64,000 bases of DNA from an uncultured Gammaproteobacteria bacterium (lineage in GTDB: Bacteria; Patescibacteriota; Patescibacteriia; Magasanikbacterales; GWA2-37-8): contig CAZHTA010000001.1 in assembly GCA_964535515.1 (NCBI GenBank), positions 49,707 through 113,706 of the forward strand, in the 5' to 3' direction. The notes under the pieces are model-generated. The model searched no databases, was not told the origin of the DNA, and saw only the letters and a list, made by a program, of their open reading frames with translations. Of the stretch, positions 852 through 62,510 are shown piece by piece. The position numbers and the translations under genes were made by a program. Each line of letters begins with the position of its first letter. Positions within the stretch are counted from its first letter, which is position 1.

Positions 852-905
852 TTAGAGAAAAAGAAGGCGGCATGGTAGGCTCTGTCGATAACATTCGCCG
901 CCCTT
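852..905 (-). terminator. Rho-independent terminator after the zinc-ribbon gene
   Basis: GC hairpin aagaagggcggc...gccgccttctt followed by a T-run on the minus strand. Confidence 0.4.
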
Positions 906-906
906 C

Positions 907-1122
907 TTACTCATACTTTGGCCTGAGATAGCCACAGTGCGGACACTTCTCGATCGACGAGAGGTGGATACGAGTAAGAGTTGCACACCCACAGATCCAC
1001 AACCTGCAGACGTGGGTTTCCCACTTACCGTGTTTAACCGCACTTTTCCCTCCTCCGAGCAAACGGGCGATGATCTCATCCACCGAGGGCGACACCTTGT
1101 CTTTCCCTTGTGTGTCGGTCAT
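907..1122 (-). CDS. small zinc-ribbon protein (71 aa), high-GC island 1
   Basis: ORF with AAGGAGG SD 5 nt upstream of ATG. CxxxxCxC...CPHCG cysteine pattern. About 58% GC versus about 37% backbone. Confidence 0.55.
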   Translation of the reverse strand: MTDTQGKDKVSPSVDEIIARLLGGGKSAVKHGKWETHVCRLWICGCATLTRIHLSSIEKCPHCGYLRPKYE

Positions 1123-1186
1123 TTTGTCCTCCTTTGGACAAGATGGTTATCTGCCTCTACCTTAGTCCAAAAAGAAATGACTGTCA

Positions 1187-1346
1187 AACAAAATAAAAAC
1201 ACGAACGCCGCCCCGGGTGGGACGGCGGTGTTTCTGGAATTTAGAAAGACAGGACAATGTCCACGATGGACATCAGGATGGCAGTGCCGGCGGGGATATA
1301 GAAATTATCCCATTTACCGCCTAACACCTCAAAGACAGGGGCAGAG
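1187..1346. repeat. Direct repeat copy 1 (about 160 bp, near-identical to 2673-2832): a displaced terminator plus the 3' end of the membrane-protein gene
   Basis: caaaataaaaacacgaacgccgccccgggtgggacggcggtgtttctgg...gacaggggcagagc occurs twice with 2-3 mismatches. This copy diverges right after ggggcagagc, so it is an orphan 3' gene fragment plus terminator. Confidence 0.85.
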
Positions 1347-1408
1347 CCTCGAGGAATAGAATCATTTAAAAACACAACTCCCGTCATAAAGACGAGAGCA
1401 TGAAGAGA

Positions 1409-1564
1409 CTAGCTGCACGCGAACCGATCGTTGCTGTTCCAGTCGTTGCTCTCCCAATTGAAGTTCAGCACCCAGCGATCGCCGTTGAAGTAGAGGTAAG
1501 CGACATGGCGATTACCGTCCGAGTTGCGCAAAATATGCAATGCGTCTTCCGTGACACCACCCAT
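1409..1564 (-). pseudogene. orphan 51-aa ORF paralogous to the C-terminus of the 184-aa protein at 1884-2438
   Basis: About 120 bp at 1405-1530 is about 80% identical to 1900-2020. Minus-strand translation MGGVTEDALHILRNSDGNRHVAYLYFNGDRWVLNFNWESNDWNSNDRFACS versus the 184-aa C-term GRHVAYLFFDGVRWVLYFSWEGFDWYSDDRFACS. Intact ATG..TAG, but below the ORF-track length cutoff. Confidence 0.45.
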
Positions 1565-1883
1565 CGAATACTCTCCGGGTTGAATAGAATTTGAAGACGT
1601 GATCTCCCTAACACATCACACCGAGTATCTTCATTTTATCACTTCAATCTTACTCTGCAGCAAGCCTTGGCCGACCACATTCCGAAGTTTGAAATGACGA
1701 GATTCTACACGCCCAAATCGTAACCAGGGCAGTGTCTGTAAAATCTGAATTAATTTTATCAAAATTTGACATAAAAGCAAAGACCCCCGTCCCAACATCC
1801 ACCTTGTGAGTGAACGCCGAGACGAGGGTCTGAGGAACCGAGGACCGGACAGTTGACGCCGAAGCGCCGAGTGTCCGAGTGAC

Positions 1884-2438
1884 CTAGGTTCCGAGAGACT
1901 CGCTGCACGCGAACCGATCGTCGCTGTACCAGTCGAAGCCCTCCCAAGAGAAGTACAGCACCCAGCGAACGCCGTCGAAGAAGAGGTAAGCGACATGGCG
2001 ACCACCGCCCGAGCCGCGCAACTTCGTGCCGGGCAACACAATGTATTTGCCCTGCATTTCCGTCGGGATCAGCTCGTCCTGGTGGTCGACCAAGTACTGG
2101 CCGTCGACCAGGCCGTAGTTGCCCTTCAGCACCACGGCGAGCCTGCGCATCGCCTTGGTGTTGCAGGACTCACCGGACTTGCAGAAGGGGACGAACGTGA
2201 TCTTCTTGCCCACGAAATCCGAGGGCTCGACGTCGTCCTCGACCGTGTACCCGTACTGGGCGGCGATGGCGTCGGACGGGAACGAGGGACGAGGCAGCTT
2301 CGTAACGGGCTGAGACGACACCCGCTCGACGATGAGCTTGCACTCACCGCGGAGTGCGGCGCGCGCGACATCCGTGCCGCCGAGCATGTTGAGGAGCGCC
2401 TCATCCTCTCCTCGACTCCAATCACTGTACTTTCCCAT
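1884..2438 (-). CDS. hypothetical protein (184 aa), high-GC island 1 cargo
   Basis: ORF with ATG at 2438. Non-biased amino-acid composition, unlike the overlapping antisense ORFs. No family recognised. Confidence 0.55.
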   Translation of the reverse strand: MGKYSDWSRGEDEALLNMLGGTDVARAALRGECKLIVERVSSQPVTKLPRPSFPSDAIAAQYGYTVEDDVEPSDFVGKKITFVPFCKSGESCNTKAMRRLAVVLKGNYGLVDGQYLVDHQDELIPTEMQGKYIVLPGTKLRGSGGGRHVAYLFFDGVRWVLYFSWEGFDWYSDDRFACSESLGT

Positions 2439-2672
2439 TTCGTGGACTCTCTTTCAGGGCTGAAAGCCCGAAAAGCAATTTGCCCCTGCCCGGGGCCCAG
2501 GTCTCCCTCTCATGAGAAGAGCTTTTGTGCCACTTATGAAAAATGACACCAAAGTTCTTCTGATGATTTTAACTAATTTGTTCACTAATTATATAAAGAA
2601 CCGCTTATTCTAAATCCTAGAATAACAAGAAATTATAGCAAAAAACAGAGAATTTGTCAAACTTCCCCACCA

Positions 2673-2832
2673 ACAAAATAAAAACACGAACGCCGCCCCG
2701 GGTGGGACGGCGGTGTTTCTGGAATTTAGAAAGACAGGACAATGTCCACGATGGACATCAGGATGGCAGTGCCGGCGGGGATATAGAAATTATCCCATTT
2801 ACCACCTAGCACCTCAAAGACAGGGGCAGAGC
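2673..2832. repeat. Direct repeat copy 2 (functional 3' end plus terminator of the membrane-protein gene)
   Basis: Near-identical to 1187-1346. Contains the stop of the 230-aa gene and a GC-rich hairpin followed by TTTTTATTTT on the minus strand. Confidence 0.85.
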
Positions 2833-3418
2833 ACACGCCTACCGTATACACGGTTACAACATGCCAGAACCCCAGTTCCACAGGAAAGAGCGGTGTAGCA
2901 AAGTGGTAGACCCCCACCCAGATTGCAGCGATGATTCCAACCCCCAATCCGAACAGCATGCCCCCGCGCGACTTACCGTTTTTAAAACGGGGCCCCATGG
3001 GAAAACGCTTGCCCAGCTTAGAGATCGGATCTACTACCCCCAACAGCAACCCAGCCAGCGCACAGATCCAGCGTGGACAGAAAACCCAAGCCACTGTACA
3101 CCCGAGAATCGTCTGAAGGGTAGTAGTCAAATCACCGCTCTTCTCGTTGTCCCTTGTGAAATGACTCACAAAGGCCGTGACCCGGTCAGCCCAGACAGCC
3201 GAGCTACGTTGCGCTGTCTTTCTAACCACCTCGACGGCAGAGAAGACAGACGCCACGATAATCAAAGCCGCCCAAACCACCTGGTTGCCATAGAACAACG
3301 GGTGGAGCACCAGCCAGGCCGAAAGCCCGACCAAGAAGTGGAGCAACCCGCGCTTCACTTCTGTCCCTGTCGACCACTTACCCCAATGGGTGAGGTGGTC
3401 TTGCCATTCCTTTTTCAA
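2726..3418 (-). CDS. polytopic membrane protein, CTP_transf_1-like (CdsA/dolichol-kinase/CarS superfamily) candidate
   Basis: 230 aa with multiple TM helices. C-terminal DPISKLGKRFPMGPRFKNGKSRGG resembles the S..KR..G.KD.G..GHGG motif of the cytidylyltransferase family. TTG start with GGGGGAGG just upstream. High GC. Confidence 0.5.
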   Translation of the reverse strand: MKKEWQDHLTHWGKWSTGTEVKRGLLHFLVGLSAWLVLHPLFYGNQVVWAALIIVASVFSAVEVVRKTAQRSSAVWADRVTAFVSHFTRDNEKSGDLTTTLQTILGCTVAWVFCPRWICALAGLLLGVVDPISKLGKRFPMGPRFKNGKSRGGMLFGLGVGIIAAIWVGVYHFATPLFPVELGFWHVVTVYTVGVCSAPVFEVLGGKWDNFYIPAGTAILMSIVDIVLSF

Positions 3419-3489
3419 TTCCTCCCCCTTTAAGATAAATGATCTGATTCAGTTTTATCACACTGCTCAAAAAAAATCAAGATTAAAAA

Positions 3490-3530: not shown

Positions 3531-3535
3531 TTTGA

Positions 3536-12861: not shown

Positions 12862-13160
12862 AAAAGTTGTTCTTATATCGAATAATTGAATTATATCCCA
12901 CCCTAAAACATAAATCAAACAAGATTGACAATTTGCCTAAAATAGGCTAATTTAGCTTGGGATAACTGGAAAAAGGAGGAAGAACTTGAGACACGTCTTG
13001 ATGTCCGTCAAGAAGCGCGGCATGAAGTTCGGACGTCGCCGGGTGTTCTAACCCCGACTTCTACGGCTACACCATCTCATATCCCCCATGCACGCCTGCT
13101 GCACTCCCATCCTGCAGGCATTCCATTTTTATAACTACTTTGGTAATTATAAAATAGAAT

Positions 13161-13194
13161 AAAAAACCACTGCTTTAAAACAGTGGTTTTTTAT
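13161..13194. terminator. bidirectional terminator T1 (degenerate copy of the guaB terminator at 16124-16156)
   Basis: aaaaaaccactgctttaaaacagtggtttttt. Lies at the left edge of high-GC island 2. Confidence 0.6.
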
Positions 13195-13367
13195 TCCCCT
13201 CATTCATCAAAATATTTTAATGAATAAGGGATGGGTGGTGTATGCGCCGGAAACACACACCCTTCCCCCCTAGGAAAGAACAGTAGCATTTCACACTGAA
13301 ACACGAACATTTCTCCGGCTATGTGAACGAGATTGAATGAGCGAAATTGAAGACCAGCGCGAACGCG

Positions 13368-15824
13368 CTAGGCCTGGTGTTCGTCGTTGGTGAGACGGGT
13401 CTTGACCTCGTCCCACACACCGGCGATGAACTCCACCGCGAGAACGGGGTTCCTGACGACGATATCGGCCACCATCGGATAGCGATTGCCGAGCATTTCG
13501 AGCAGGACCTCCACGACCTCGTGGTGCATCGCCAGCATCACGACCTTGCCGATGTCGACGAGACCGTCCGTGCGACCGGCAGGGATGAAGGACGGCGGCG
13601 GGATGAACACCATGGAGGGCGAAGCCACGCCATCTTCCATGCCATCCCGAGTTTCGGGCGGTTGGTCGAGAGCCGTATTGTCGGCGTCGTCATGTTGACC
13701 CACCAGCCCATCGGGGAACGGCTCAGCCGACTCGACGACCTCGTCGACACGACCTTCCGGCTCCCTCGACTCCTCCGACGAGATGTAACCGAACTGTGCC
13801 GACTGGAGTTGAGCGAACGCCTCGTCGTAGCCGCCTTCCCCGAAGAAACCGCTGTCCCGAATGACGTCGAGGGCGGCCTGGCCGCCATCGATCGTGGAGA
13901 AGCGCTCCCGAGGAATGGTCTCCCCGGTCACACTCTTCCACTCGTAGACGATCACGGTCGCACCACTTCCCTCGATCCGTTCGAGTTGCAGTCTACCGGC
14001 AGGAGTGGCCCTGATGGGCTCCGCCAGAACGGATTCCTGCTCGAGCACGGACTCGATGACCTCGGGGGTCGGATCGAGATCTTCGATCGGCGGCGCAACA
14101 CCCACGATGGGCACGACGTCGTTGGCCTCGGCGGGTGCCGCGGCCATCGCGTCGTCGTTGACCTCGATCGAAGCCGCGTTGGCGTCAACCAGGTCGACGA
14201 CCGCCTCGACGACAGACACCGGGGTTGGTGTAGCCGACGGAACGTAGGTGAACGGTTCATCGGTCCGGGGATGCTTGATGAACTTGATCTGACGATCAGC
14301 AACACCATCACCCACGAACTCCACGTAGCCCCAGTCACGAACCGTCCTGCAATATATCGAGGCCGAACAGGTCTCGTTCAGGTTCACCTTGGGACATTGC
14401 AGTCCCGAGATGCGCATGACCTCGGCGTAAGGCCCGGTGCGGCCATTCACGAGTTCGAACAGCTGAGCCAGACGCTCCTGCCGATCCATGCGAGCACCCG
14501 ACAACGCCGGCACCTTGGTCCAATCGAACTCGTCCACCACGATGGCGACGGGCTCGATGACCTCAGAGGTCGGCTCGAGCTCTTCAACCGGCGGCGCAGC
14601 ACTCACGATGGGCGCAGCGTCGTTGGTCTCGGCGAGGACGGGTTCTTCACGATCGGCACGCTTGCCCACGACCAGGCCGTCCAGATCTAGAACCATGTCG
14701 TTGGGATCACCCGCCCACACGAACTTGTCGGGATGATCCTTGTTGGGCTCGAGCGTTCCGTAACCCAAGTTCTCCATGAGGCGCAAAGCCTCACGGGCAC
14801 CACCCTTGTTGACGAAGCAGCCCACACCTTCCCAGTCGAGGCTGCCCCACGGCACATCCTTACCCTGGTAATGAGCGTAGAACTTCACGGCCACATCGAG
14901 GGGCGCGGAGAGCGACTCAGCGGGGCTATCGGCGTTGACCGCGACCGGCTCGGCCGTCGCCACGTTAGCGTCGGTCAAACCACCGCCGTTCGCCTCCGAT
15001 CCGACACCGAAGTCCTTGATGGCCATCGGATCGAGCAAGTAAATCTTGTGCTCGATCGTCAAGCTGTCCTGCACCTGCTTGTTCTGCAACTGGCAGAGGA
15101 CCATAACGGCCTCATCACCGGCCTTGATCAGCCGACTGTAGAGGCCCAGGATGTTGCTGGAGACAGCGTAGGTGGGGTGTTTGGTCGAACCCTTGTTCAC
15201 CACCCACTTGTGCCGTTCCATTTCCTTGAGCACTTCGACGACGAGGTTGCGCCTCTGCTGAACACCTTCCTGCTTGCCCAGGATCTCCTTGTACAGATCT
15301 CCCAGGCCGTGCTCGGCACCTTCGTCCAACACCTCCATAATGGCACCGAACAACTCGGCCTGTTTGGCCTTGCTCATGACTTGCCTCCCTTCTTGCGCTT
15401 TCATCCAGGCTTCTATCATCTCGCCTTTGTTCGAGACTCTCCTCTCTTGAGCAAGATCATCTTCGTCTTCTTCCGGGGCTTCACCTTTCGGCTCTACTCC
15501 GAGCGAAGCGAGGATCGTACGTGTGGTTTCACCTCCAGCCTTTTTTCGTTTTGCTTTCTCTGCTTGCCACTCACGCTCCTCGAAGACACCAGACGTGCCT
15601 TCTTCGGAGAACCCTTCACGATTCTTCCTTCCCTGCACGCAACGCCAACAACAGCTACGCTTTTTCTCCATCGCGTTTGCATCGAGGTAATCGTCGAGAC
15701 ATTGCTGCAACGACAACACCTTCCGGCGAGACTTGCACGGGAACGTGGTAGCCGCAAGTTGCGCCTCCAGCTCTGGACACCCTTCTCGATACGAAGGGGG
15801 AGCGAACGGATCACTCTTGTCCAT
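13368..15824 (-). CDS. large acidic hypothetical protein with internal tandem repeats (818 aa from the SD-preceded ATG), high-GC island 2
   Basis: About 62% GC. GGAGGAGGTG directly before ATG at 15824. Internal repeat NDAAPIVSAAPPVEELEPTSEVIEPV versus NDVVPIVGVAPPIEDLDPTPEVIESV. The plus-strand ORFs over the same span have R/G/H-biased junk composition. Confidence 0.6.
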   Translation of the reverse strand: MDKSDPFAPPSYREGCPELEAQLAATTFPCKSRRKVLSLQQCLDDYLDANAMEKKRSCCWRCVQGRKNREGFSEEGTSGVFEEREWQAEKAKRKKAGGETTRTILASLGVEPKGEAPEEDEDDLAQERRVSNKGEMIEAWMKAQEGRQVMSKAKQAELFGAIMEVLDEGAEHGLGDLYKEILGKQEGVQQRRNLVVEVLKEMERHKWVVNKGSTKHPTYAVSSNILGLYSRLIKAGDEAVMVLCQLQNKQVQDSLTIEHKIYLLDPMAIKDFGVGSEANGGGLTDANVATAEPVAVNADSPAESLSAPLDVAVKFYAHYQGKDVPWGSLDWEGVGCFVNKGGAREALRLMENLGYGTLEPNKDHPDKFVWAGDPNDMVLDLDGLVVGKRADREEPVLAETNDAAPIVSAAPPVEELEPTSEVIEPVAIVVDEFDWTKVPALSGARMDRQERLAQLFELVNGRTGPYAEVMRISGLQCPKVNLNETCSASIYCRTVRDWGYVEFVGDGVADRQIKFIKHPRTDEPFTYVPSATPTPVSVVEAVVDLVDANAASIEVNDDAMAAAPAEANDVVPIVGVAPPIEDLDPTPEVIESVLEQESVLAEPIRATPAGRLQLERIEGSGATVIVYEWKSVTGETIPRERFSTIDGGQAALDVIRDSGFFGEGGYDEAFAQLQSAQFGYISSEESREPEGRVDEVVESAEPFPDGLVGQHDDADNTALDQPPETRDGMEDGVASPSMVFIPPPSFIPAGRTDGLVDIGKVVMLAMHHEVVEVLLEMLGNRYPMVADIVVRNPVLAVEFIAGVWDEVKTRLTNDEHQA

Positions 15825-16123
15825 CACCTCCTCCTTCTGGTTTGGGTTTCTTTCGCATACGCCTGTACGCAAACTGCGGACACCACTTACGGGGCGACCC
15901 TTTGTTTCTCACCTCCAACATCATCCCTCCTCCCGGTGTGAAAGTTGAGTGCTAGCCTAAAACGATCGAAACCGTCTATGTTACCTTTTATATATGCAAA
16001 ACTGCCTAAGCAGTTTGTTAGGTTGGAAAAGAACTAATCGTTTCTCCTCCTTTCAGCTTTGTATTCTACATATTTAATACTAAAAGTCAACCATTCATAC
16101 TAAAACTACGCACTTCTAAAACA

Positions 16124-16156
16124 CAAAAAAACACCGCTTTAAACGGTGGTTTTTTG
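16124..16156. terminator. guaB terminator T2
   Basis: aaaaacaccgctttaaacggtggtttttt immediately downstream of the guaB stop (minus strand). Confidence 0.65.
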
Positions 16157-16170
16157 TTGCTAATTTTTTA

Positions 16171-21949: not shown

Positions 21950-22183
21950 ATGGCAACGGTCGACAGACACCCCACCGGCGCACATCGACAGTCGTACAGC
22001 GACAACCGGAACCATCTGTTCGAGCGGCGCAAGAAGAAGCGGGCCAACGCTGCCGCACGAGCGAAGATCCCCCTCGAGCGGCGCCTCGCGGCCGAGAAGG
22101 CCTGGCGCAACATGCCGGGTGGCGTCCTGCCGAGCTTCGCACGGCCGGAACAGACCCACTACATGTCGCGGTATGGGTACTAG
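21950..22183 (+). CDS. small basic protein (77 aa), high-GC island 3
   Basis: AGGAGG 7 nt upstream of ATG. Sensible composition. The overlapping 131-aa ORF in another frame is R/P/A junk. Confidence 0.5.
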   Translation: MATVDRHPTGAHRQSYSDNRNHLFERRKKKRANAAARAKIPLERRLAAEKAWRNMPGGVLPSFARPEQTHYMSRYGY

Positions 22184-36059: not shown

Positions 36060-37373
36060 CTACTCCTTTTCCAAAATTTGAAACCAGGGAAGGATCGAGC
36101 GGTCCGTACGGTGATAAGGACCACGTGCCGGAAGGGTAAAGGAGGGGTTGTTGGCAAGCAACCGATACGTCTCCGGATCAACACGCCGCACTGCCGTGCC
36201 TTCGTCATACTCCTTCTTCACTACCGTACCAGCCGAATACTCATTAAGCAGTATTACTGGCAAAGCAGAAATCGGATGATGCCTGTGCACTTGCGGCATG
36301 ATTTCTTCGAACAGAAGCTGGGAGTGATTAGCCAACAACTCCGACAACACACGCAAGACTTCACGCGTGATGATCGGGCCCATGGCCAAGCAATGCTTCC
36401 CGACGAATTCGGTGACACGCGACTGAAGAACTCCCGAGCTAAACGATCCGATCGCCTTGAGCAAGTTCCAGAGCCAGGCGGTAGTATGGCGATGGCTACC
36501 GTCCGTATTGCACCCATACTCATTCACCACGATAGGAGCAAACCCGTTCTTGTACAAGCTCTGGAGCTCTTGGATAATACGCGCCGGCACCACCAGCTCA
36601 GTTGCCTTGATGGAAGCGAGCCCGACTTCTCCAACCTCAATCCACATGCCGCGATAAACACCCCGACTATGAATATTGAGATTGTAAGAATACTGTCGAT
36701 AACTCGCTGCTGCCTCCAACTCAAAAGCTACGCTCAACCCGCAATTCTCTTTACCAACAACTGACATAGTGTTCTCTGCCCACAAAAGCGTATCGCGATT
36801 GTAGACCATCCTACCGTGTTGGTCCCAAGCCTGACGCACCAACGACAGAACTTTGGCTACGCCATCATCGTGCGCCTGGTGCAGATTGCGCCGCAGCTCT
36901 TCAACATACGCCTGCCAACCAACATCACTCCGCGGCAGCGTTTGAACGACGACGGGACTCAAGACAAAGATGTCCGGCTCTGCCACACCCGACCAATCCC
37001 ACGACGGCAGCTTACGCTCTGCCACGGTCGTTACTGGCTGATGATTCCCAACAACCGGAATCCCCGCGAACTTCGAAAGCTCCTGGAAGCGACTCCATTC
37101 CAAAGCGCCGGCATTAATCTGACAACTACCGCCCGGACCAGGCAAGGTATGCCCGGGAAAGCGCGTCAGACACTGTACCCCCGGCATCACGAGCGCCGTC
37201 CCAACTCGGGAAGAAATGAACTCGCACTCACACCCACTAATCGGATCCGCGAACAGATCATTCTCCTGCTTGATCTGTTTCACGCCCTTCTGCTGTTGAT
37301 ACTGTCCCACGTCTGGCTCCCGAAAGCGACACGACGACTTGAATCCGGGCAAGAGCAACGCACCCTCTCGCAT
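36060..37373 (-). CDS. hypothetical protein (437 aa from the SD-preceded ATG), high-GC island 4
   Basis: GCAGGAGGAGGGAAC then ATG at 37373. About 60% GC. The plus-strand ORFs over it are compositional junk. No family recognised. Confidence 0.6.
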   Translation of the reverse strand: MREGALLLPGFKSSCRFREPDVGQYQQQKGVKQIKQENDLFADPISGCECEFISSRVGTALVMPGVQCLTRFPGHTLPGPGGSCQINAGALEWSRFQELSKFAGIPVVGNHQPVTTVAERKLPSWDWSGVAEPDIFVLSPVVVQTLPRSDVGWQAYVEELRRNLHQAHDDGVAKVLSLVRQAWDQHGRMVYNRDTLLWAENTMSVVGKENCGLSVAFELEAAASYRQYSYNLNIHSRGVYRGMWIEVGEVGLASIKATELVVPARIIQELQSLYKNGFAPIVVNEYGCNTDGSHRHTTAWLWNLLKAIGSFSSGVLQSRVTEFVGKHCLAMGPIITREVLRVLSELLANHSQLLFEEIMPQVHRHHPISALPVILLNEYSAGTVVKKEYDEGTAVRRVDPETYRLLANNPSFTLPARGPYHRTDRSILPWFQILEKE

Positions 37374-37447: not shown

Positions 37448-37486
37448 CTACCAAGCAACCGGCCCTGTCCCGGTGGTAGTAGCGGT
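37448..37486. repeat. hairpin element H1 (direct-repeat partner of 38254-38296)
   Basis: ctaccaagcaaccggccctgtcccggtggtagtagcggtag versus ctaccgcctcaaagagagagctgaacggtggtagtagttgtag. Shared CTACC...CGGTGGTAGTAG. Confidence 0.5.
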
Positions 37487-38203
37487 AGTCAATTTTTGAA
37501 TTTCATTTACTATTTTTTCAAAACCAATAATTTTTAATTTATTCATCTCATCAACTGATAACAAAAAATTTAAAGTTGGTAATAATGATGGTACAGAAAC
37601 AAAATATTTTGACTCCTTAAATACTTTTTCTCGTTGTACAACTCCGCCAAAACCAACAAAAATACCCACTTCACTTGCCGCTTCCCAGTCAGCCACACTA
37701 TCACCCACCAACGCTAATCTTCCACCTTTTTGTTTTTCTTGCTGTAACACTTTTGTTTTACCGCAATCCTGAGCCAGCAACGAACTAGTATTAAAATTAG
37801 AAAAATTTTCATCCCCATCAAAAAATATCTCATTGGCGATAATACTGCTCTCGTCTAACCCAAGCTTTTTCGCCACCGGTAAAATCATTGGGTGAAAATT
37901 AGCTGACAAAATATATACCTGCTTATCTAAAGCACACAATATTTTTATTACCTCTACTGCTCCATCTACCAACAAACCAACACACTCCTGTGCCACAAGA
38001 TCGAGATCGTTTTTTGTCGGAGCAATCAACTGCATTTTTTCTATAAAAATATCAGCAAAAGCCACTTCGCCATCCATCGAACGTTTCGTCATAACAGCAA
38101 CTTTTTCTCCCACCCCCCGGCGCGAACCTAACAAATCCAAACTTTCCGCTTTAATCAAAGTGCTATCAAAATCAAAATATATTTTATTGATTGTTTCATT
38201 CAT
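37448..38203 (-). CDS. HAD-superfamily hydrolase (phosphatase)
   Basis: Motif I FDFDSTL, motif III/IV ...K...GDSVAD. The last about 14 codons (KLTTATTTGTGPVAW) are encoded by GC-rich island-boundary sequence. Confidence 0.75.
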   Translation of the reverse strand: MNETINKIYFDFDSTLIKAESLDLLGSRRGVGEKVAVMTKRSMDGEVAFADIFIEKMQLIAPTKNDLDLVAQECVGLLVDGAVEVIKILCALDKQVYILSANFHPMILPVAKKLGLDESSIIANEIFFDGDENFSNFNTSSLLAQDCGKTKVLQQEKQKGGRLALVGDSVADWEAASEVGIFVGFGGVVQREKVFKESKYFVSVPSLLPTLNFLLSVDEMNKLKIIGFEKIVNEIQKLTTATTTGTGPVAW

Positions 38204-42768: not shown

Positions 42769-42783
42769 CCCGGATTTTTTAAA

Positions 42784-43931: not shown

Positions 43932-44035
43932 AATCGAAACAAACGAAAGAAATGAAAAAAATGATTATTCATTCCCAAACAAGTAAAAACTATATATTTC
44001 AAAACTCTCCTTTTCTAAGGAGAGTCTAACGATGA

Positions 44036-44500: not shown

Positions 44501-44507
44501 AAAACAA

Positions 44508-45008: not shown

Positions 45009-45024
45009 AAATTTATTTACTAAC

Positions 45025-45459: not shown

Positions 45460-45472
45460 AATTTATAAAATG

Positions 45473-46060: not shown

Positions 46061-46171
46061 ATTTATCTTATATATTGGACACTGGAAAAAATACCTTCTT
46101 TCCACTAGCCAATAAAACTTCTTCCAACAGGGGGTTGCGCGCGCGAACCCCCTGTAGAAAGATAAAAACTA

Positions 46172-46645: not shown

Positions 46646-46706
46646 ATATTCACCCCCTTTCTTTGTATCAAAATTTATACAATAATTATAACACACCGAT
46701 TATTTT

Positions 46707-47261
46707 TTATCCAGACAATCCTTTCAACACTGCTGTCAAAAGCAGATAACTAGACAACACCACTACTGCACCTAAAATTGCCCAAATAATCATGTTTGAA
46801 CCAGACTTAATTTTTTCCGGACTACCAGCAGCTGTCAACCAAGTAATTCCACCATAAACAATCATCAAAAGAACAAGAGCACCCATTATACCAGTGGCAG
46901 TTTTAATAGCATTGCCAATAATAGCATTCACATCTGTTACATTTCCCTCCAAAGGATTACTTAATTTTACTACATTGCCAGAATCAGTTGGGGCGCTGAC
47001 AGTAGAACTAGGAGCGACTCCTGGCACCTCTTCATTGCACGACTCCGGCAAAGCTTCCACTGGCCCACCACTAGTACAACCTTCTGGACAAACCGCTTCC
47101 ACTTCTGCTGCCGCACCAAAAGAAGCACATTTTTGACCATTAACTCGTTCAACTTCAGACAAAGAACTACCAGAACAATCACAAAAATAAATTGCAGCAA
47201 AAGTAGTCGCCGGAAAAAATACACACCCAACAATTAATAAATATAAAAATAATTTTTTCAT
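46707..47261 (-). CDS. VirB2/TrbC-like family paralog 7 (Cys-rich N-terminal domain)
   Basis: MKKLFLYLLIVGCVFFPATTFA...VYGGITWLTAAGSPEKIKSGSNMIIWAILGAVVVLSSYLLLTAV. Confidence 0.5.
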   Translation of the reverse strand: MKKLFLYLLIVGCVFFPATTFAAIYFCDCSGSSLSEVERVNGQKCASFGAAAEVEAVCPEGCTSGGPVEALPESCNEEVPGVAPSSTVSAPTDSGNVVKLSNPLEGNVTDVNAIIGNAIKTATGIMGALVLLMIVYGGITWLTAAGSPEKIKSGSNMIIWAILGAVVVLSSYLLLTAVLKGLSG

Positions 47262-47264
47262 ATA

Positions 47265-48236
47265 TTACCCAGCAAATTTAAAAAGAATAGTAACGATCGC
47301 ATAACTTGCCAAAACCACTATCACCCCAAGCGTGCTCCAGATAGCAATTTGCTTTGCCTTACCAACTCTTTCACTACTACCCGCCGAAGTCATCCAAAGC
47401 ACGCCGGCATAGACATAGAAAAGCAACAACAAAGACCCCATGGTAAACGTCATAGCGGCAATCATTCTGCCAATAAAATCGTTAACTCCCGCTGCGCCTG
47501 TTTTAAATTTCATTGGATTAAGTGTGCTAGCAGCTTCGGCCTTAAGTATTTTAGCAGTGTCAATAACTGGAGCGGTAGGTTTTTCTATTATCGACTCAGC
47601 ACTACTACAAGGCTTTATCCCGTTAGAAAAAAGATCAGCACAATTCCCAGCAAACTCTTTCCAACCACCCCACGAAGCGCTGACTGTTGAATTTGGATCG
47701 TCGCAAGTTAAAAAATCACCAAGATTGCTCCCGGCAGGAATTATCCCTGACTCAATCTGACCGAGAACTTCTGGACGAATAAAAGGAACATGTGGCGGGG
47801 CATCCTTACATGAGGCATCTGAGTTGTAACAACACGCATTTTTTTGCACAGCTTCTATTTGTTTTTTAACACCATTCGCACTCGCCTTACTAAGTTTAAC
47901 CAAAAAACCAGTACTATTATTTAATTGGTCTGCTTTAGCACAGTTTTCATCGTCGTTACCAACTGCCGCAGCATAAAATCCAGGTACATCAATACATTCT
48001 CCAGATTCTGAAGAATAGCCTCCTTTTAAATTATCCGAATAGATACCTGACTCTAAAGAACAATCCGCCGGTTGATTAGTTGTAATATTTAGACAGATTT
48101 CGCTTGGCTCATCACCTTCATAGTAAACACAACAAGCGCCAGCGGCGGCGGCATAATCATAATGAGAAACAAACAAATACCCAGATAAAAAAATTACAAA
48201 GAAAGACAAAAACTTAAAAGAAAAAAACTCACGCAT
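47265..48236 (-). CDS. VirB2/TrbC-like family paralog 8 (large Cys-rich N-terminal domain, 323 aa)
   Basis: About 16 Cys in the ectodomain, then VYAGVLWMTSAGSSERVGKAKQIAIWSTLGVIVVLASYAIVTILF. Confidence 0.5.
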   Translation of the reverse strand: MREFFSFKFLSFFVIFLSGYLFVSHYDYAAAAGACCVYYEGDEPSEICLNITTNQPADCSLESGIYSDNLKGGYSSESGECIDVPGFYAAAVGNDDENCAKADQLNNSTGFLVKLSKASANGVKKQIEAVQKNACCYNSDASCKDAPPHVPFIRPEVLGQIESGIIPAGSNLGDFLTCDDPNSTVSASWGGWKEFAGNCADLFSNGIKPCSSAESIIEKPTAPVIDTAKILKAEAASTLNPMKFKTGAAGVNDFIGRMIAAMTFTMGSLLLLFYVYAGVLWMTSAGSSERVGKAKQIAIWSTLGVIVVLASYAIVTILFKFAG

Positions 48237-48241
48237 ATATT

Positions 48242-48910
48242 TTAACTAGTCAATTGAAACTCTGGCTTTATATTAACCGCCTCACCCAAGAAACTTACTA
48301 ACATATAAGCACCAAACATGATAACCAAACCAATTACTGCTGCCACCAAAATATCTGTACCTTTCTTTACTTTCTCCGAACTGCCTTGAGACAAGATCAA
48401 TGTAAACCCACCATAAACAAACATTACCAAAGCCAAAGCACCAATTACACCAAACAAATACCGTGACAGCTGAATAAGAAAAAATACAAAAATAGAAACA
48501 TCCATACAAGGATCATCTGCCACTTTCGAGAACGATCGCGCCAAGAGACATTCTGGAATTAATTGGCTAGCCACTCCTCTGAAACCACTTTTAGTAGCAG
48601 CCGTTCCTTCTAAATCTCGAGAGGCTTCCCATTTATTTTTTTCGTCTTTACATAACTGTTCACCCGTTGCTCCAGCAAAAAACTTACAACTTCTTTTTAA
48701 TCCTTCACCCTGCTTTGCTAAACAAGTAGCTTCATCTGCTGCTGTTTCACAACTACTACTAAACAAAGAATTGTCTTTAATATTCTCTGGCGTTGCTTTG
48801 CTTAAATCACTCCCACAAAAACAATAATCAGCCGCCGAAACTAATGTGGGGGTTAAGAAAAACATCAACCCAATTAAACCTCCTACTAACCAACTGGTTT
48901 TTTTAATCAT
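48242..48910 (-). CDS. VirB2/TrbC-like family paralog 9 (Cys-rich N-terminal domain)
   Basis: MIKKTSWLVGGLIGLMFFLTPTLVSA...VYGGFTLILSQGSSEKVKKGTDILVAAVIGLVIMFGAYMLVSFL. Confidence 0.5.
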   Translation of the reverse strand: MIKKTSWLVGGLIGLMFFLTPTLVSAADYCFCGSDLSKATPENIKDNSLFSSSCETAADEATCLAKQGEGLKRSCKFFAGATGEQLCKDEKNKWEASRDLEGTAATKSGFRGVASQLIPECLLARSFSKVADDPCMDVSIFVFFLIQLSRYLFGVIGALALVMFVYGGFTLILSQGSSEKVKKGTDILVAAVIGLVIMFGAYMLVSFLGEAVNIKPEFQLTS

Positions 48911-56758: not shown

Positions 56759-56787
56759 TTGACAACATATCATAAATGATATATAAT
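56759..56787 (+). promoter_or_regulatory. consensus promoter TTGACA-17-TATAAT with the palindrome tatcataaatgata in the spacer (toxin-antitoxin operator candidate)
   Basis: Read directly. ATG of the toxin at 56797 is about 3 nt after the TSS, so it is leaderless. Confidence 0.55.
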
Positions 56788-56796
56788 ATTAAACGT

Positions 56797-57162
56797 ATGG
56801 AGGGATATAAAATATTTTATTATAAAAATAGTTCTAATGGAAAACAGCCGGCAAGAGAATTTATTCTCGGTTTACAACATAAAGTAAGAGTAAAGGTCTT
56901 TAAATATTTGGAGTATCTACGGTTAAATAATGGCTATCTAGACGAACCCTACTCGCGGCATATAAAAGACAAAATAAGAGAATTGCGAGTCGATTTTGCC
57001 AAAGAGCGACACAGGATTTTCTATTTTACTTTTATTGATAAAAAAATCATTTTATTAAACGGATTTACCAAAAAAACTCCAAAGACACCAGAAAGCGAAA
57101 TTGAAAAAGCACAAAAATATTATCTAGAGACGATCAATAACCCAAATATATATGAAGAATAA
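56797..57162 (+). CDS. type II toxin, HigB/Gp49-like (RelE/ParE superfamily)
   Basis: KQPAREFILGL...KVFKYLEYLRLNNGYLDEPYSRHIKDKIRELRVDFAKERHRIFYFTFIDKKIILLNGFTKKTPKTPESEIEKAQKYY matches the Gp49/DUF891 addiction-module killer pattern. The ORF-track start inside the promoter was rejected. Confidence 0.7.
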   Translation: MEGYKIFYYKNSSNGKQPAREFILGLQHKVRVKVFKYLEYLRLNNGYLDEPYSRHIKDKIRELRVDFAKERHRIFYFTFIDKKIILLNGFTKKTPKTPESEIEKAQKYYLETINNPNIYEE

Positions 57163-57442
57163 AAGAAAACTAAATGATTTTGAGCAAGATCTTCAAAAAG
57201 AATTGAAAAACCCGGAATCTAAACGATTGTTTGACGAATATGGCAAACAACTAGAATTGGCTTACCAAATTTTACAATTACGTAAAAAACAAAAAGTATC
57301 ACAAAGCCAACTGGCAAAGAAAATTGGTACCACTCAAAGTAATGTGGCAAGAATGGAAGCTGGCAAACAAAATTTTTCAACAAACACACTAGTAAAAGTG
57401 GCAGCAGCACTGGGCAAAGAATTGGAAATAAAATTTGTATAA
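57152..57442 (+). CDS. XRE-family HTH antitoxin (HigA-like)
   Basis: QSQLAKKIGTTQSNVARMEAGKQNFSTNTLVKVAAALGKEL. Overlaps the toxin stop by 11 nt. Confidence 0.75.
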   Translation: MKNKRKLNDFEQDLQKELKNPESKRLFDEYGKQLELAYQILQLRKKQKVSQSQLAKKIGTTQSNVARMEAGKQNFSTNTLVKVAAALGKELEIKFV

Positions 57443-57448
57443 AACTAA

Positions 57449-60590: not shown

Positions 60591-61652
60591 ATGCCTAAAG
60601 TTAGTGAGGAGGTAAAGAACAAGCTAAAAGCCGCTGAAACTGCTATTGAGCAAATCAAAGCTAAATTCGGTGAAGGCGCAATCATGACCTTTGGGGAGGG
60701 GCAAACTACGCACGTCGAATCAGTTACTACCGGTTGTCTTTCATTAGACGTTGCCTTGGGTGTAAGAGGCGTACCACGTGGCCGTATTATCGAAATCTAT
60801 GGCCCAGAATCTTCTGGTAAAACCACCCTGTCTCAACATATTATCGCTGAGGTACAAAAAACTGGTGGTATTGCCGCCTTTGTGGATGCAGAACATGCTT
60901 TTGATCCAGACTATGCTAGAAAAATTGGTATTAAGATTGAAGAGCTTCTAATCTCTCAACCTGACACCGGCGAACAGGCTTTAGATATCGTAGAAACATT
61001 AGTACGATCTAATGCCGTCGATATTATCGTCGTCGACTCAGTTGCGGCACTTGTACCAAGAGCAGAAATCGAAGGTGACATGGGAGATTCACACATGGGT
61101 TTACAAGCTCGTCTCATGAGCCAGGCACTACGTAAACTTACTGGTATTATCAGCAAGTCAAAAACCATCCTTGTTTTCATCAATCAGACTCGTATGAAGA
61201 TCGGCGTGGTCTATGGTAACCCAGAAACTACTACCGGTGGTACTGCTTTAAAATTTTACTCTTCTATCCGTATTGAAATTCGTCGCGCCGCCCAGATTAA
61301 ACAAGGCGACAAAGTGATTGGTAACCGAGTGAAGATAAAAGTAGTAAAAAACAAAGTAGCCGCACCGTTCCGCACCACTGAATTTGATATCATGTATAAT
61401 GAAGGAATTTCACTAAGTGGCGACACTCTTGATACTGGTGTGTTATTTAAAGTGATTGATAAAAAAGGTAATAGCTACAGCTTTGGTGAAGAAAAACTTG
61501 GTGTCGGACGCGAAGCTGCCAAAAGATATTTGAAAGAACACCCAGAATTAATGAAAAGAGCCTATGCCGCTGTCTTTGAAGCAGTACAAAGTGGTGAAGC
61601 ACCAGAAGAGGAAGAGGCTGAAGACGACGCACCATTGCCAACGGAAGAATAG
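60591..61652 (+). CDS. recA: recombinase RecA
   Basis: [10 protein letters not shown] Walker A, L1/L2 loops, acidic C-tail. Confidence 0.97.
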
Positions 61653-61666
61653 ACTAAATCTAAAAA

Positions 61667-61700
61667 CAAAAACACTTCCCGATTTGGGGAGTGTTTTTTT
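61667..61700 (+). terminator. recA terminator (direct-repeat copy A)
   Basis: caaaaacacttcccgatttggggagtgttttttt. Confidence 0.7.
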
Positions 61701-61743
61701 GTTTCTTTGCCTAGCGAAACTGATTGTATTTATTGGGTAAAGC

Positions 61744-61771
61744 ACACACATCATTGACAAAACCGCTATTT
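61744..61771 (+). promoter_or_regulatory. sigma70-like promoter TTGACA-16-TATTAT, upstream of the island 5 gene
   Basis: Read directly. Followed by an about 140-nt AT-rich leader containing the palindrome tcgccagtggcga (61873-61885). Confidence 0.5.
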
Positions 61772-61915
61772 TATGCTATTATATCCTGTTCTTTAAAAAC
61801 TATATCCCTTTTGGCAAAAGACGTAAATTATAAAATATTTACTTTTTCTACCAGAAGGGACAACGTACCAATCGCCAGTGGCGAGTATGGCGTGCCCCTT
61901 GAATTGAGGACTAAA

Positions 61916-62293
61916 ATGAGGAAAATCGCATTGGTTCTGGTTGCGGCCCTGTTCGTTCTGTCGACCGGTATCGGCATCTGGGACTGCTGGAGCAACACCA
62001 ACGGCGACGGATGGAACCCGTCGACCCCGGTCATCTCATTCGTGCTCGGCTACAGCCGGGTCGAACCCTGCACCTATTTGGGGCAGGAGGACGGGTGGGA
62101 CTGCACGACCTTTGACGGGGCCATCAACCCTCTCCCCTGGGCGTGGGTGGATGAGCCAAAAAAAGACGACATCCTGCACACGATCATCGTGATGACCCCC
62201 AAGTGGCTCGAATGGCTGGGGCTCCTGTTCGCGACGATCGCCCTGGCTGCTCCGCCGCCGCGCACAACCACGCTCAATCGTGGCAACATCTGA
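61916..62293 (+). CDS. small secreted/membrane-anchored Cys/Trp-rich protein (125 aa), high-GC island 5
   Basis: GAGGA then ATG. MRKIALVLVAALFVLSTGIG signal/anchor. CWSNTNGDGWNP...C...C...WAWVDEP. About 62% GC. Confidence 0.55.
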   Translation: MRKIALVLVAALFVLSTGIGIWDCWSNTNGDGWNPSTPVISFVLGYSRVEPCTYLGQEDGWDCTTFDGAINPLPWAWVDEPKKDDILHTIIVMTPKWLEWLGLLFATIALAAPPPRTTTLNRGNI

Positions 62294-62363
62294 GACCTCA
62301 CGGGTTCGGTAGCGCAATTCTTGCGCAAACACGAACCTGTGAATTCACACAGTTCTTAACACC

Positions 62364-62448
62364 GACCCTCCATAGCAGAAAAAAATTTTCTTCTGTGGAG
62401 GTGTTAGGAATATTACTTAAAAAGAAACGCATTTTGCGTTTCTTTTTG
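62364..62448 (+). terminator. two terminator hairpins after the island 5 gene
   Basis: cctccatagcagaa...ttctgtggagg and agaaacgcattttgcgtttct+TTTTT. Confidence 0.55.
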
Positions 62449-62478
62449 TGTTCATTTAAATAGTAAACCTAACCTAGA

Positions 62479-62510
62479 CAAAAACACTTCTAAATTTGGG
62501 GAGTATTTTT
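62479..62510. repeat. degenerate direct-repeat copy B of the recA terminator
   Basis: caaaaacacttctaaatttggggagtattttt versus copy A caaaaacacttcccgatttggggagtgttttt, about 28/32 identical. Confidence 0.75.

What the first reader, a model, noticed from the sequence alone, without database searches (positions are those of the whole stretch)
852..62510. Mosaic composition: five short high-GC, SD-bearing gene islands in a low-GC, largely SD-less genome
Five segments are about 58-62% GC against a backbone of about 35-40%: 852-3430, 13199-15960, 21925-22270, 36000-37447 and 61860-62300. Every island gene I trust has a canonical SD 4-8 nt before the start: AAGGAGG, GGAGGAGG, AGGAGG, GGAGGAGGG or GAGGA. 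The native genes rpoB, recA, ruvB, ftsK and galU have none, and several are leaderless. Each island sits exactly at an intergenic terminator and has no integrase. Either this is repeated single-gene horizontal acquisition from a high-GC donor into a CPR-like genome, or the contig is chimeric or engineered.
Basis: partly seen in the sequence, partly recalled or inferred. Interest (0 to 1): 0.85.

Follow-up and report, generated by a model that had tools for sequence, protein, structure and literature searches.

The report
GC-rich accessory cassettes including a DGR
The five GC-rich patches in this low-GC Magasanikbacteria-like (candidate phyla radiation) chromosome are real, natural gene cassettes of different ages, not one wave of foreign DNA or an assembly error; one carries the variable half of a diversity-generating retroelement, and another is an old kinase-like gene that stays GC-rich in every relative.

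Summary
The five segments are 53-64% GC against a 39% backbone. Their genes have GC3 of 0.61-0.85 against 0.24-0.47 for native genes, and foreign codon usage. Five of seven have strong Shine-Dalgarno (SD) sites, while native genes have almost none.

The window is Magasanikbacteria-like.
- A syntenic relative (L001) lacks island 2, island 3 and most of island 1, so these are lineage-specific insertions. They have no integrase. Two are bracketed by duplicated resident sequence (161 nt and 33 nt).
- Every island protein family with detectable homologues is found in Patescibacteria genomes or in unlabelled contigs. No outside high-GC donor, phage or plasmid relative was found.
- Island 4 is not an insertion. 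Its gene (ParB/sulfiredoxin fold, closest to free serine kinases) sits downstream of a HAD hydrolase in six lineages and diverges in step with it. It keeps high GC and an SD wherever the genome is AT-rich.
- Island 1 holds a diversity-generating retroelement target gene and template repeat: 16 of 17 mismatches fall on template adenines. No reverse transcriptase is in the window.

A chimeric or engineered contig is very unlikely. Why some families stay GC-rich is unresolved.

The parts
907..1122 (-). I1c: 71-aa Cys-rich ORF (CxxxxCxC...CPHC), SD AAGGAGGA, GC3 0.64. Absent from L001. No homologue found.
1187..1347 (-). D4a: 161-nt copy, 99% identical, of the 3' end of I1b plus its terminator. 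Together with D4b it brackets the 1,485-nt DGR cassette.
   Evidence: family D4; identical terminator hairpins 1227-1206 and 2712-2691
1404..1531 (-). DGR template repeat (TR). A hairpin at 1399-1377 lies just 3' of it.
1532..1883 (-). Non-coding DGR module between the variable repeat and the TR. It has a 20-bp hairpin (1829-1783) just downstream of the target gene and an AT-rich spacer. The whole module including the TR is 87% identical to the complete DGR in L086.
1884..2438 (-). I1a: DGR target gene, 184 aa, GC 0.625, GC3 0.85. The variable repeat (VR) is at 1894-2021, at its 3' end.
2632..2660 (-). Consensus sigma-70-type promoter (TTGACA-17-TATAAT, 12 of 12, with TG) upstream of I1a, in AT-rich sequence.
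2672..2832 (-). D4b: the original of the 161-nt repeat (3' end of I1b plus its terminator).
2726..3418 (-). I1b: 230-aa hydrophobic, probably membrane protein, SD GGGGGAGGA plus TTG start, GC3 0.65. A GC-rich, SD-led orthologue sits at the same position in L001 but is only 47% identical.
12919..16170 (.). Island-2 insertion relative to L001, where only 24 nt separate IMPDH from the cobalamin adenosyltransferase gene.
13368..15824 (-). I2: 818-aa acidic, modular protein. It has an N-terminal four-cysteine domain (residues about 25-75) and a repeated module of about 95 aa. SD GGAGGAGG, GC 0.60, GC3 0.735. Its own promoter is at 16090-16063; terminators are at 16148-16132 and 13197-13156.
21950..22183 (+). 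I3: 77-aa basic ORF, SD AGGAGG, GC3 0.83, terminator at 22325-22354. The whole cassette of about 460 nt is absent from L001.
36060..37373 (-). I4: 437-aa protein with a ParB/sulfiredoxin-fold domain, closest to free serine kinases. SD AGGAGGAGGG, GC 0.54, GC3 0.61. A hairpin plus T-run at 37421-37408 separates it from the HAD gene. Terminator at 35974-35928.
37448..38203 (-). HAD hydrolase with native composition (GC3 0.31). It is the conserved upstream partner of I4 in the block S15-NYN-PNPase-HAD-I4.
61666..61698 (+). recA terminator: left copy of a 33-nt direct repeat (88% identical) flanking the island-5 cassette.
   Evidence: (D11)
61916..62293 (+). I5: 125-aa ORF with hydrophobic N- and C-terminal segments, rich in Cys and Trp. 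SD GAGGA, GC3 0.82. Promoter at 61754-61782, terminator at 62418-62448.
62478..62510 (+). Right copy of the 33-nt repeat flanking island 5.
   Evidence: D11

Best explanation
The islands are natural accessory-gene cassettes in a Magasanikbacteria-like chromosome. They do not share one history.

(1) Islands 2, 3 and 5, plus the DGR cassette and I1c in island 1, are recent, lineage-specific, integrase-free insertions of one gene each. Each gene is GC-rich (GC3 0.64-0.85; 0.74-0.85 without I1c) and, apart from I1a, preceded by an SD. Each sits between resident-type AT-rich promoters and terminators in a terminator-bearing intergenic site. I infer they entered by recombination, because resident sequence is duplicated at the borders of two of them. 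I also infer they came from a GC-richer, SD-using part of the patescibacterial gene pool, not from another phylum.

(2) Island 1 contains the cis half of a diversity-generating retroelement (DGR): a target gene whose C-terminal variable repeat is rewritten from a nearby template repeat by adenine-specific mutagenic retrohoming. The reverse transcriptase and Avd would have to act in trans from outside the window, or have been lost.

(3) Island 4, and probably I1b, are old residents. I4 is a ParB/sulfiredoxin-fold, serine-kinase-like protein in an ancient two-gene unit with a HAD phosphatase-type hydrolase. It has kept a high GC3 and an SD in every AT-rich lineage examined. I infer this reflects selection on the gene itself, not a transfer scar.

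(4) The link between GC and SD is functional, by inference. Native mRNAs start translation from unstructured A/U-rich or leaderless 5' ends. GC-rich mRNAs fold around the start codon and need an SD.
For: Insertions. L001 has 83-95% amino-acid identity and is collinear, but lacks island 2, island 3, I1a/TR and I1c. Direct repeats of resident sequence bracket the DGR cassette (161 nt, 99%) and island 5 (33 nt, 88%). No integrase, transposase or RT matched among 40 Pfam-scanned native or unassigned ORFs.

Patescibacterial gene pool. I2's large relatives are in two Magasanikbacteria and one Uhrbacteria. One of them (L090) is again a single 58% GC, GAGGAGGAGG-led gene between 36-38% GC S1 and FtsH genes. 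The I1a homologues found are in contigs labelled Magasanikbacteria (L003, L086). There are no phage, plasmid or viral hits. A published survey also finds most transfers into Patescibacteria come from other Patescibacteria (PMC12455944).

DGR. The TR and VR align over 128 nt. Sixteen of 17 core mismatches are at TR adenines, all at codon positions 1-2 (P about 1e-11). The VR lies at the 3' end of the target gene and a 20-bp hairpin follows the gene. The homologous cassette in L086 is followed by bAvd and an RVT_1 gene. The non-coding module is 87% identical to L086.

GC-SD link. Start regions of island genes fold more strongly (-8 to -17 against a median of -5 kcal/mol, p = 0.002). Across 30 low-GC3 loci, genes with a GC3 excess of 0.2 or more carry strong SDs 35% of the time against 5% for native-like genes (p = 2e-5; p = 3e-4 without the window).

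Age gradient. Lineage-specific genes have GC3 0.74-0.85; I1b and I4, which relatives share, have 0.61-0.65.
Against: - No donor has been identified for any island. I3, I5 and I1c have no homologues at all, so their coding status rests only on ORF, SD, promoter and terminator.
- The RT and Avd are absent from the window, so DGR activity is not shown.
- The recombination route is inferred from two repeat pairs. Island 2's flanking terminators are only 65% alike and belong to a common terminator family (D6).
- Selection for GC in I4 is inferred from its persistence across deep lineages. Substitutions could not be polarised, so repeated replacement in place by GC-rich alleles is not excluded. I1b, at 47% identity in a conserved position, hints that such replacement happens.
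- The I2 relative in L087 has nearly native GC3 (0.37), so GC-richness is not fixed in that family.
- The 16S anti-SD could not be checked, because no rRNA is in the window.
Confidence: 0.55

Rival explanations
1. One reading: repeated single-gene horizontal acquisition from one high-GC donor outside the CPR, such as a host. All five islands would be recent foreign DNA that has not yet drifted to the resident composition.
For: GC3 and codon usage look like those of a 55-65% GC organism. SDs are present in an otherwise SD-less genome. Islands 2, 3 and part of island 1 are absent from L001.
Against: No homologue was found outside Patescibacteria MAGs or unlabelled contigs for I2, I4 or I1a, in searches of 5.8 billion and 1.84 billion proteins. 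I4 co-diverges with its native-GC partner HAD across six lineages. I1b is already present in L001. GC3 falls into two classes, 0.74-0.85 and 0.61-0.65. Promoters and terminators inside the cassettes are resident-type and AT-rich.
Confidence: 0.15
2. All the islands belong to a gene class kept GC-rich and SD-led by selection in these genomes, that is, a second translation or expression regime. Transfer is incidental. Presence or absence in relatives reflects loss as much as gain.
For: I4 keeps GC and SD in four deep AT-rich lineages while HAD does not. Inside one DGR (L086) the target and TR are 60-66% GC while Avd and RT are 30-38%. The same GC-SD coupling is seen in L084, L089, L090 and across 30 loci. 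The closest relatives by rpoC are SD-less whatever their GC.
Against: The I2 relative in L087 has native GC3. The GC3 gradient fits slow drift towards the resident composition. Flanking duplications indicate recent insertion. No selective agent has been identified.
Confidence: 0.22
3. The contig is chimeric (misassembled or misbinned) or engineered.
For: GC changes are sharp and each cassette looks tidy: promoter, SD, ORF, terminator. A 91.5%-identical Logan contig (L081) ends at the terminator just before island 2.
Against: Every island has native sequence on both sides within one 148-kb deposited contig. The HAD/I4 junction, with its conserved untranslated regions, recurs in eight contigs from independent sources (L082, L083). 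The GC-rich I1b orthologue sits at the same site in L001. An I2-like island is seen in ENA and NCBI assemblies. The 161-nt and 33-nt duplications of resident sequence are signs of recombination, not of assembly.
Confidence: 0.03
4. The GC-rich segments are structured non-coding RNAs, which is the usual cause of GC peaks in AT-rich genomes, and not protein genes.
For: GC-rich intergenic peaks in AT-rich genomes often mark structured RNAs (general knowledge). No island ORF matches any protein-family model significantly.
Against: No Rfam match falls inside any island ORF, even at E up to 0.1; the only non-tRNA hits near islands lie on the flanking terminator hairpins. I4, I2, I1a and I1b have significant protein-level homologues. 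Third-position substitutions dominate in I4. GC3 is higher than GC2 in every island gene.
Confidence: 0.03

Closest known systems
Diversity-generating retroelements (Bordetella phage BPP-1 Mtd type; abundant in CPR and DPANN according to published surveys, cited from my own knowledge)
   Same: There is a TR/VR pair with adenine-only mismatches at codon positions 1-2 (AAC codons). The VR is at the 3' end of the target ORF and a hairpin follows it. The TR lies downstream. A homologous cassette in a relative sits next to bAvd and an RVT_1 gene.
   Different: No RT or Avd is in the window; the homology to L086 ends just after the TR's 3' hairpin, where the 161-nt repeat begins. The target family matches no Pfam domain, and a C-type-lectin fold could not be shown. 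The target and TR are 60-66% GC while the RT and Avd of the related element are 30-38% GC.
Compositionally atypical genomic islands or islets acquired by horizontal transfer
   Same: Atypical GC, GC3 and codon usage. Absent from a close relative. Flanking direct repeats at two cassettes. Located in intergenic sites.
   Different: There is no integrase, no insertion at a tRNA gene and no mobility genes. Each holds a single gene and uses resident-type promoters and terminators. No donor is known. At least one 'island' (I4) is an ancient resident whose atypical composition persists.
Free serine kinases SerK (Thermococcus, PDB 5x0b) and SbnI (Staphylococcus, 5ujd): ParB/sulfiredoxin-fold ATP- or ADP-binding enzymes (PMC12704722)
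   Different: I4 is about 440 aa, with large extra helical regions. It matches no Pfam ParBc profile. Sequence identity is 14-15%. Substrate and activity are unknown.
Bacteroidota-type translation initiation, largely without SD sites (from my own knowledge)
   Same: Native genes lack SD sites and start in A/U-rich or leaderless contexts. A small minority of genes keep strong SD sites.
   Different: Here the SD-bearing minority is also strongly GC-rich and mostly accessory, and in the I4 family the SD is conserved across deep lineages. The 16S anti-SD could not be examined.

Membership tests
Diversity-generating retroelement | Template and variable repeats that differ almost only at template adenines | tested here: met
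   128-nt pair (1404-1531 and 1894-2021). 16 of 17 core mismatches are at TR adenines; 28 of the 123 core bases are A; hypergeometric P about 1e-11.
Diversity-generating retroelement | Variable repeat at the 3' end of a protein-coding target gene, with changes confined to codon positions 1-2 | tested here: met
   The VR covers the last ~46 codons of I1a. All 16 adenine changes are at codon positions 1 or 2.
Diversity-generating retroelement | DGR-type reverse transcriptase encoded nearby | tested here: not met
   tblastn with the L086 RT finds nothing in the window. No RVT family matched in 40 scanned native or unassigned ORFs. The other 84 kb of the source contig could not be read.
Diversity-generating retroelement | Accessory variability determinant (Avd) nearby | tested here: not met
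   tblastn with the L086 bAvd finds nothing in the window.
Diversity-generating retroelement | Homology of the cassette to a complete DGR elsewhere | tested here: met
   L086 has the order target-VR, TR, bAvd (PF22296), RT (PF00078). The target is 50% identical and the non-coding module 87% identical.
Diversity-generating retroelement | Hairpin or cruciform and IMH-like element just 3' of the VR | tested here: inconclusive
   A 20-bp hairpin (1829-1783) follows the gene, and TR/VR homology runs about 10 nt past the stop codon. Function not testable here.
Diversity-generating retroelement | Target protein displays the VR on a C-type-lectin or Ig-like fold | tested here: inconclusive
   The AlphaFold model of I1a, built from two sequences, has pLDDT 42 and is unusable.
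Horizontally acquired genomic island | Atypical base composition and codon usage | tested here: met
Horizontally acquired genomic island | Absent from the syntenic site in a close relative | tested here: inconclusive
   Met for island 2, island 3, the DGR cassette and I1c. Not met for I4 (present in L082) or I1b (present in L001). Island 5 was not covered by any relative.
Horizontally acquired genomic island | Integrase or other mobility gene, or insertion at a tRNA gene | tested here: not met
   No such Pfam family in 40 scanned native or unassigned ORFs, and island ORFs match no Pfam family. No island abuts a tRNA gene.
Horizontally acquired genomic island | Identifiable donor lineage | tested here: not met
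   Only Patescibacteria or unlabelled homologues. No phage, plasmid or viral hits.
ParB/sulfiredoxin-fold free serine kinase (SerK/SbnI) | ParB/Srx nucleotide-binding fold | tested here: met
ParB/sulfiredoxin-fold free serine kinase (SerK/SbnI) | Conserved DGxHR-type motif of the fold | tested here: met
   D291, G292, H294 and R295 are invariant in 19 sequences. That this matches the ParB-box motif is from my own knowledge.
ParB/sulfiredoxin-fold free serine kinase (SerK/SbnI) | Sequence-profile membership (Pfam or NCBIfam) | tested here: not met
   No Pfam, NCBIfam or PDB sequence hit.
ParB/sulfiredoxin-fold free serine kinase (SerK/SbnI) | Serine phosphorylation activity | not testable with these tools
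   Needs an enzyme assay. The HAD-superfamily neighbour, and seryl-tRNA synthetase nearby in L172, are only suggestive.
Structured non-coding RNA (Rfam families) | Match to a covariance model | tested here: not met
   Only six tRNAs at gathering score. At E up to 0.1 the only other hits are terminator-like ones flanking islands and one on a tRNA.

The most novel reading that the evidence does not exclude
In these SD-less, AT-rich Patescibacteria, a minority of gene families would be held by selection at high GC3 with a conserved SD. Examples are the HAD-linked I4 kinase-like gene and DGR target/template modules. Base composition would then be a heritable, gene-intrinsic trait that survives more than 60% protein divergence and differs between partners of one operon or one retroelement. 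That would imply two coexisting translation or expression regimes in one tiny genome, not a record of foreign origin.
Probability: 0.3. Interest if true: 0.75.

Novelty: new variant of a known kind. Interest (0 to 1): 0.5.

Why it matters
Atypical GC and codon usage are routinely read as recent horizontal transfer. Here that reading fits some cassettes but fails for one: I4 keeps its foreign-looking composition and SD next to a native-looking operon partner in every AT-rich lineage examined. If this is general, composition-based transfer detection overcalls in Patescibacteria, and these organisms may run two modes of translation initiation side by side.

The work also gives three practical results:
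- A new, unannotated DGR target family with intact cis elements but no local reverse transcriptase. This is a test case for supply in trans or for decay of a DGR.
- A new HAD-linked ParB/sulfiredoxin-fold family with a testable kinase-phosphatase hypothesis.
- Examples of integrase-free single-gene insertion at terminators in a CPR genome.

Tried and rejected
- Protein-family scans of all island ORFs, both strands, against Pfam, PHROGs, NCBIfam and PADLOC found nothing significant.
- Rfam found nothing inside any island ORF, at gathering score or at E up to 0.1, so the structured-RNA reading was rejected.
- Looking up the source contig by exact protein failed. Two window proteins are 'not on record' in the position index although they are in the cluster table. 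The remaining 84 kb could therefore not be searched for the RT or the 16S gene.
- The close Logan contig L081 ends at the island-2 border and is uninformative.
- I2 against phage and plasmid collections, and I2, I4 and I1a against viral contigs, gave no relatives, so a phage or plasmid origin has no support.
- The rpoC-anchored metagenome scan returned 80 loci. None has island-1 genes downstream of rpoC.
- The structure prediction of I1a failed (pLDDT 42).
- The afdb50 fold library was unavailable.
- The 87-nt internal repeat of I2 was tested as a second TR/VR. By my reading of the two printed copies its mismatches are of mixed types, so it is not a DGR pair (D7). The two mismatches in the 161-nt repeat are also not at adenines.
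- I tested whether whole-gene adenine mutagenesis could explain the GC-richness. Third-position T is depleted as well as A, so the pattern is not adenine-specific.
- The conserved 3' untranslated region of I4 is not shared beyond the closest relative.
- No 16S rRNA was found in any fetched relative, only a 23S in L082, so the anti-SD could not be checked.

Full report
**1. The observation**

GC at those coordinates is 0.530, 0.591, 0.636, 0.535 and 0.599, against a backbone of 0.393. Each island is 5.6-12.4 sd above same-size backbone windows and above the backbone maximum. Island 1 is patchy, with AT-rich gaps.

The coding genes of islands 1, 2 and 4 are on the minus strand:
- I1c, 907-1122
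- I1a, 1884-2438
- I1b, 2726-3418
- I2, 13368-15824
- I4, 36060-37373

I3 (21950-22183) and I5 (61916-62293) are on the plus strand. Island genes have GC3 of 0.61-0.85; native genes have 0.24-0.47. Codon adaptation to the native set is 0.36-0.50 for island genes and 0.61-0.75 for native genes.

The Shine-Dalgarno (SD) contrast is real. Five of seven island genes pair with a generic anti-SD at -10 kcal/mol or stronger. The native median is about +0.6, and 2 of 36 native genes reach -6 or lower (p = 5e-5). Such sites occur in only 1.7% of random 20-mers from the GC-rich coding sequences, so five of seven has P of about 3e-8. Native starts lie in A/T-rich sequence, some a few bases after a TATAAT box.

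Each cassette carries resident-type elements. There is a perfect TTGACA-17-TATAAT promoter before I1a, near-consensus promoters before I2 and I5, and terminator hairpins on both sides. Pfam scans of 40 native or unassigned ORFs found ordinary cellular genes or nothing: Memo, cobalamin adenosyltransferase, class II RNR, RuvB, S15, NYN, PNPase, HAD, FtsK, RecA and pilins. None matched an integrase, transposase or reverse transcriptase. rpoB, rpoC and IMPDH were identified through homologues instead.

**2. Whose genome, and is it a chimera?**

Two island proteins (I2, I1b) and the IMPDH are deposited in NCBI on one 147,940-nt contig. The nearest genomes are Patescibacteria. L001 is collinear over about 26 kb with 64-96% amino-acid identity, 83-96% for the larger core genes. 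Candidatus Magasanikbacteria GW2011_GWC2_37_14 shares the block S15-NYN-PNPase-HAD-I4.

The low-GC/high-GC junctions recur in independently assembled relatives. HAD/I4 is seen in eight contigs, including L082 (NCBI) and L083 (Logan), with conserved untranslated regions. A GC-rich I1b orthologue sits at the same site in L001. An I2-like island appears in ENA and NCBI assemblies. A chimeric or engineered contig is therefore very unlikely. Read mapping remains the formal test.

**3. Which islands are insertions?**

- Island 2: in L001 the IMPDH stop codon is followed 24 nt later by the cobalamin adenosyltransferase start. The window has about 3.2 kb there.
- Island 3: the I3 cassette of about 460 nt is missing between RuvB and its divergent neighbour in L001.
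- Island 1: downstream of rpoC, L001 has only the I1b orthologue followed by Memo. I1a, the template repeat and I1c are missing.
- The 1,485-nt segment carrying I1a and the template repeat is bracketed by a 161-nt, 99% identical direct repeat. The repeat is the 3' end of I1b plus its terminator.
- Island 5 is bracketed by a 33-nt, 88% identical repeat that duplicates the recA terminator.

I infer integrase-free recombination at terminator-bearing intergenic sites. One possible route is single-crossover integration of a circular DNA carrying a copy of the target. This step is not shown.

**4. Where do the genes come from?**

No island protein matches Pfam, PHROGs, NCBIfam or PADLOC significantly.

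I2 finds only itself among 5.8 billion clustered proteins. An exhaustive HMMER search of 1.84 billion representatives finds an N-terminal four-cysteine domain shared with many proteins of about 70 aa. It also finds three large modular relatives, which the source names place in two Magasanikbacteria and one Uhrbacteria. One relative (L090) is again a single 58% GC gene, led by GAGGAGGAGG, between 36-38% GC S1 and FtsH genes. Another (L087) has nearly native GC3 and lies next to TraG/VirD4-like and DUF8128 genes.

The I1a homologues found (L003, L086) are in contigs labelled Magasanikbacteria. I2 has no relatives in the phage or plasmid collections, and I2, I4 and I1a have none in IMG/VR. So there is no evidence for a donor outside the Patescibacteria. 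This agrees with a published survey in which most transfers into Patescibacteria come from other Patescibacteria (PMC12455944). The closest relatives by rpoC are SD-less whatever their GC. A donor would therefore have to be a more distant, SD-using lineage.

**5. Island 1 holds a diversity-generating retroelement (DGR)**

The 128-nt repeats at 1404-1531 and 1894-2021 differ at 17 core positions. Sixteen are adenines in the downstream copy, all at codon positions 1-2, mostly in AAC codons (P about 1e-11). The variable copy forms the last ~46 codons of I1a, and a 20-bp hairpin follows the gene.

The only hit for I1a in the protein search lies on a Magasanikbacteria contig (L086), where the same target-VR and TR are followed by bAvd and an RVT_1 reverse transcriptase. 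The non-coding module (hairpin, spacer, TR, 3' hairpin) is 87% identical between the two genomes, although the target proteins are only 50% identical.

In the window the homology stops just after the TR's 3' hairpin, where the 161-nt repeat begins. No RT or Avd is found in the window. The cis half of the DGR is intact. Whether an RT acts in trans from elsewhere in the genome could not be tested.

**6. Island 4 is not an acquisition**

I4 has 19 relatives besides its own deposited record. In all six lineages whose DNA could be read, the I4 homologue lies directly downstream of a HAD hydrolase on the same strand: the window, L082/L083, L084, L085, L089 and L172. Pairwise identities of HAD and I4 run in parallel: 86% and 83% for the close pair, and 35-42% for every deep pair. 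Differences between the window and L082 are concentrated at third positions (134, against 49 and 43), as in HAD.

In every AT-rich genome I4 is GC-rich (GC3 0.52-0.66 against native 0.28-0.44), while HAD stays at 0.30-0.37. In the 61% GC genome L172 both genes are GC-rich. An SD or SD-like purine-rich run (AAGGGGGA in L084) precedes I4 in all six lineages, including L172, where the four neighbouring genes have none. At such divergence synonymous sites are saturated. Recent transfer therefore cannot explain the pattern. The remaining explanations are selection (or a gene-specific bias), or repeated replacement in place. I1b is positionally orthologous in L001, GC-rich and SD-led, but only 47% identical, which shows that replacement or very fast evolution does occur.

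The same discordance is seen inside the L086 DGR: the target and TR are 60-66% GC, and Avd and RT are 30-38%.

**7. How general is the pattern, and why would GC and SD go together?**

L084 and L089 show the same mosaic. Across 30 low-GC3 loci (471 crudely called genes), 26 genes exceed the local GC3 median by 0.2 or more. Of these, 35% have a strong SD, against 5% of native-like genes (p = 2e-5; p = 3e-4 without the window). Start regions of island genes are predicted to fold more strongly than native ones: -8 to -17 against a median of -5 kcal/mol (p = 0.002). I infer that GC-rich mRNAs cannot use the unstructured or leaderless route of the native genes and depend on an SD.

Lineage-specific genes have the highest GC3 (0.74-0.85). 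I1b and I4, which relatives share, are lower (0.61-0.65), which fits partial drift towards the resident composition.

**8. Verdict**

Several islands are genuine integrase-free single-gene insertions, but they do not come from a demonstrable outside high-GC donor. One island is an ancient resident. The contig is not a chimera on present evidence. The unresolved and most interesting point is why I4, and the DGR target/template module, stay GC-rich and SD-led beside AT-rich functional partners.

Noticed in passing
window 35975-36059 (-): The 85-nt 3' untranslated region after I4 is about 96% identical to L082, while the coding sequence is about 83% identical at the nucleotide level. It is predicted to fold into hairpins. 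It is not conserved in the deeper homologue loci.
   Followed up: partly
window 41841-48910 (-): Tandem array of at least seven paralogous genes with the T4SS_pilin domain (PF18895). It appears as repeat families of 125-158 nt spaced about 500 nt apart.
   Followed up: partly
window 56776-57442 (+): AT-rich gene pair (29-32% GC): a Gp49/HigB-like toxin followed by an HTH (HigA-like) antitoxin. In composition it is the opposite of the GC-rich islands.
   Followed up: no
window 12993-13055 (+): A tiny SD-led ORF (AAGGAGGAAGAAC-TTG; MRHVLMSVKKRGMKFGRRRVF) lies in the extra 300 nt of raised GC between the island-2 terminator and the cobalamin adenosyltransferase promoter. It is absent from L001.
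   Followed up: no
window 15803-15922 (-): A 39-codon upstream ORF with its own GGGAGGAGGG SD overlaps the I2 start codon in another frame, inside a 5' leader of about 230 nt.
   Followed up: no
L084 1886-2635, 13524-14918, 16463-17536, 19691-20701: A second Patescibacteria-like genome with four more genes of 56-60% GC, each preceded by an SD-like site, among SD-less genes of about 40% GC. They encode a probable lipoprotein, two unannotated proteins and a class IV aminotransferase.
   Followed up: partly
L087 20291-20527: An unannotated 55% GC, hairpin-rich segment beginning AGGAGG in a 39% GC Magasanikbacteria locus. It was called as a 78-aa ORF, has no Rfam match, and may be a non-coding RNA.
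   Followed up: no
L087 12578-18556: The I2-like protein P0027 lies upstream of a 130-aa gene, a DUF8128 gene, a TraG/VirD4-like coupling protein and a TPR protein. This hints at a link between this protein family and type IV secretion.
   Followed up: no
L172 2085-5803: In the 61% GC genome the HAD-I4 pair lies next to seryl-tRNA synthetase and alanine racemase. This weakly fits a serine-related role for I4.
   Followed up: no
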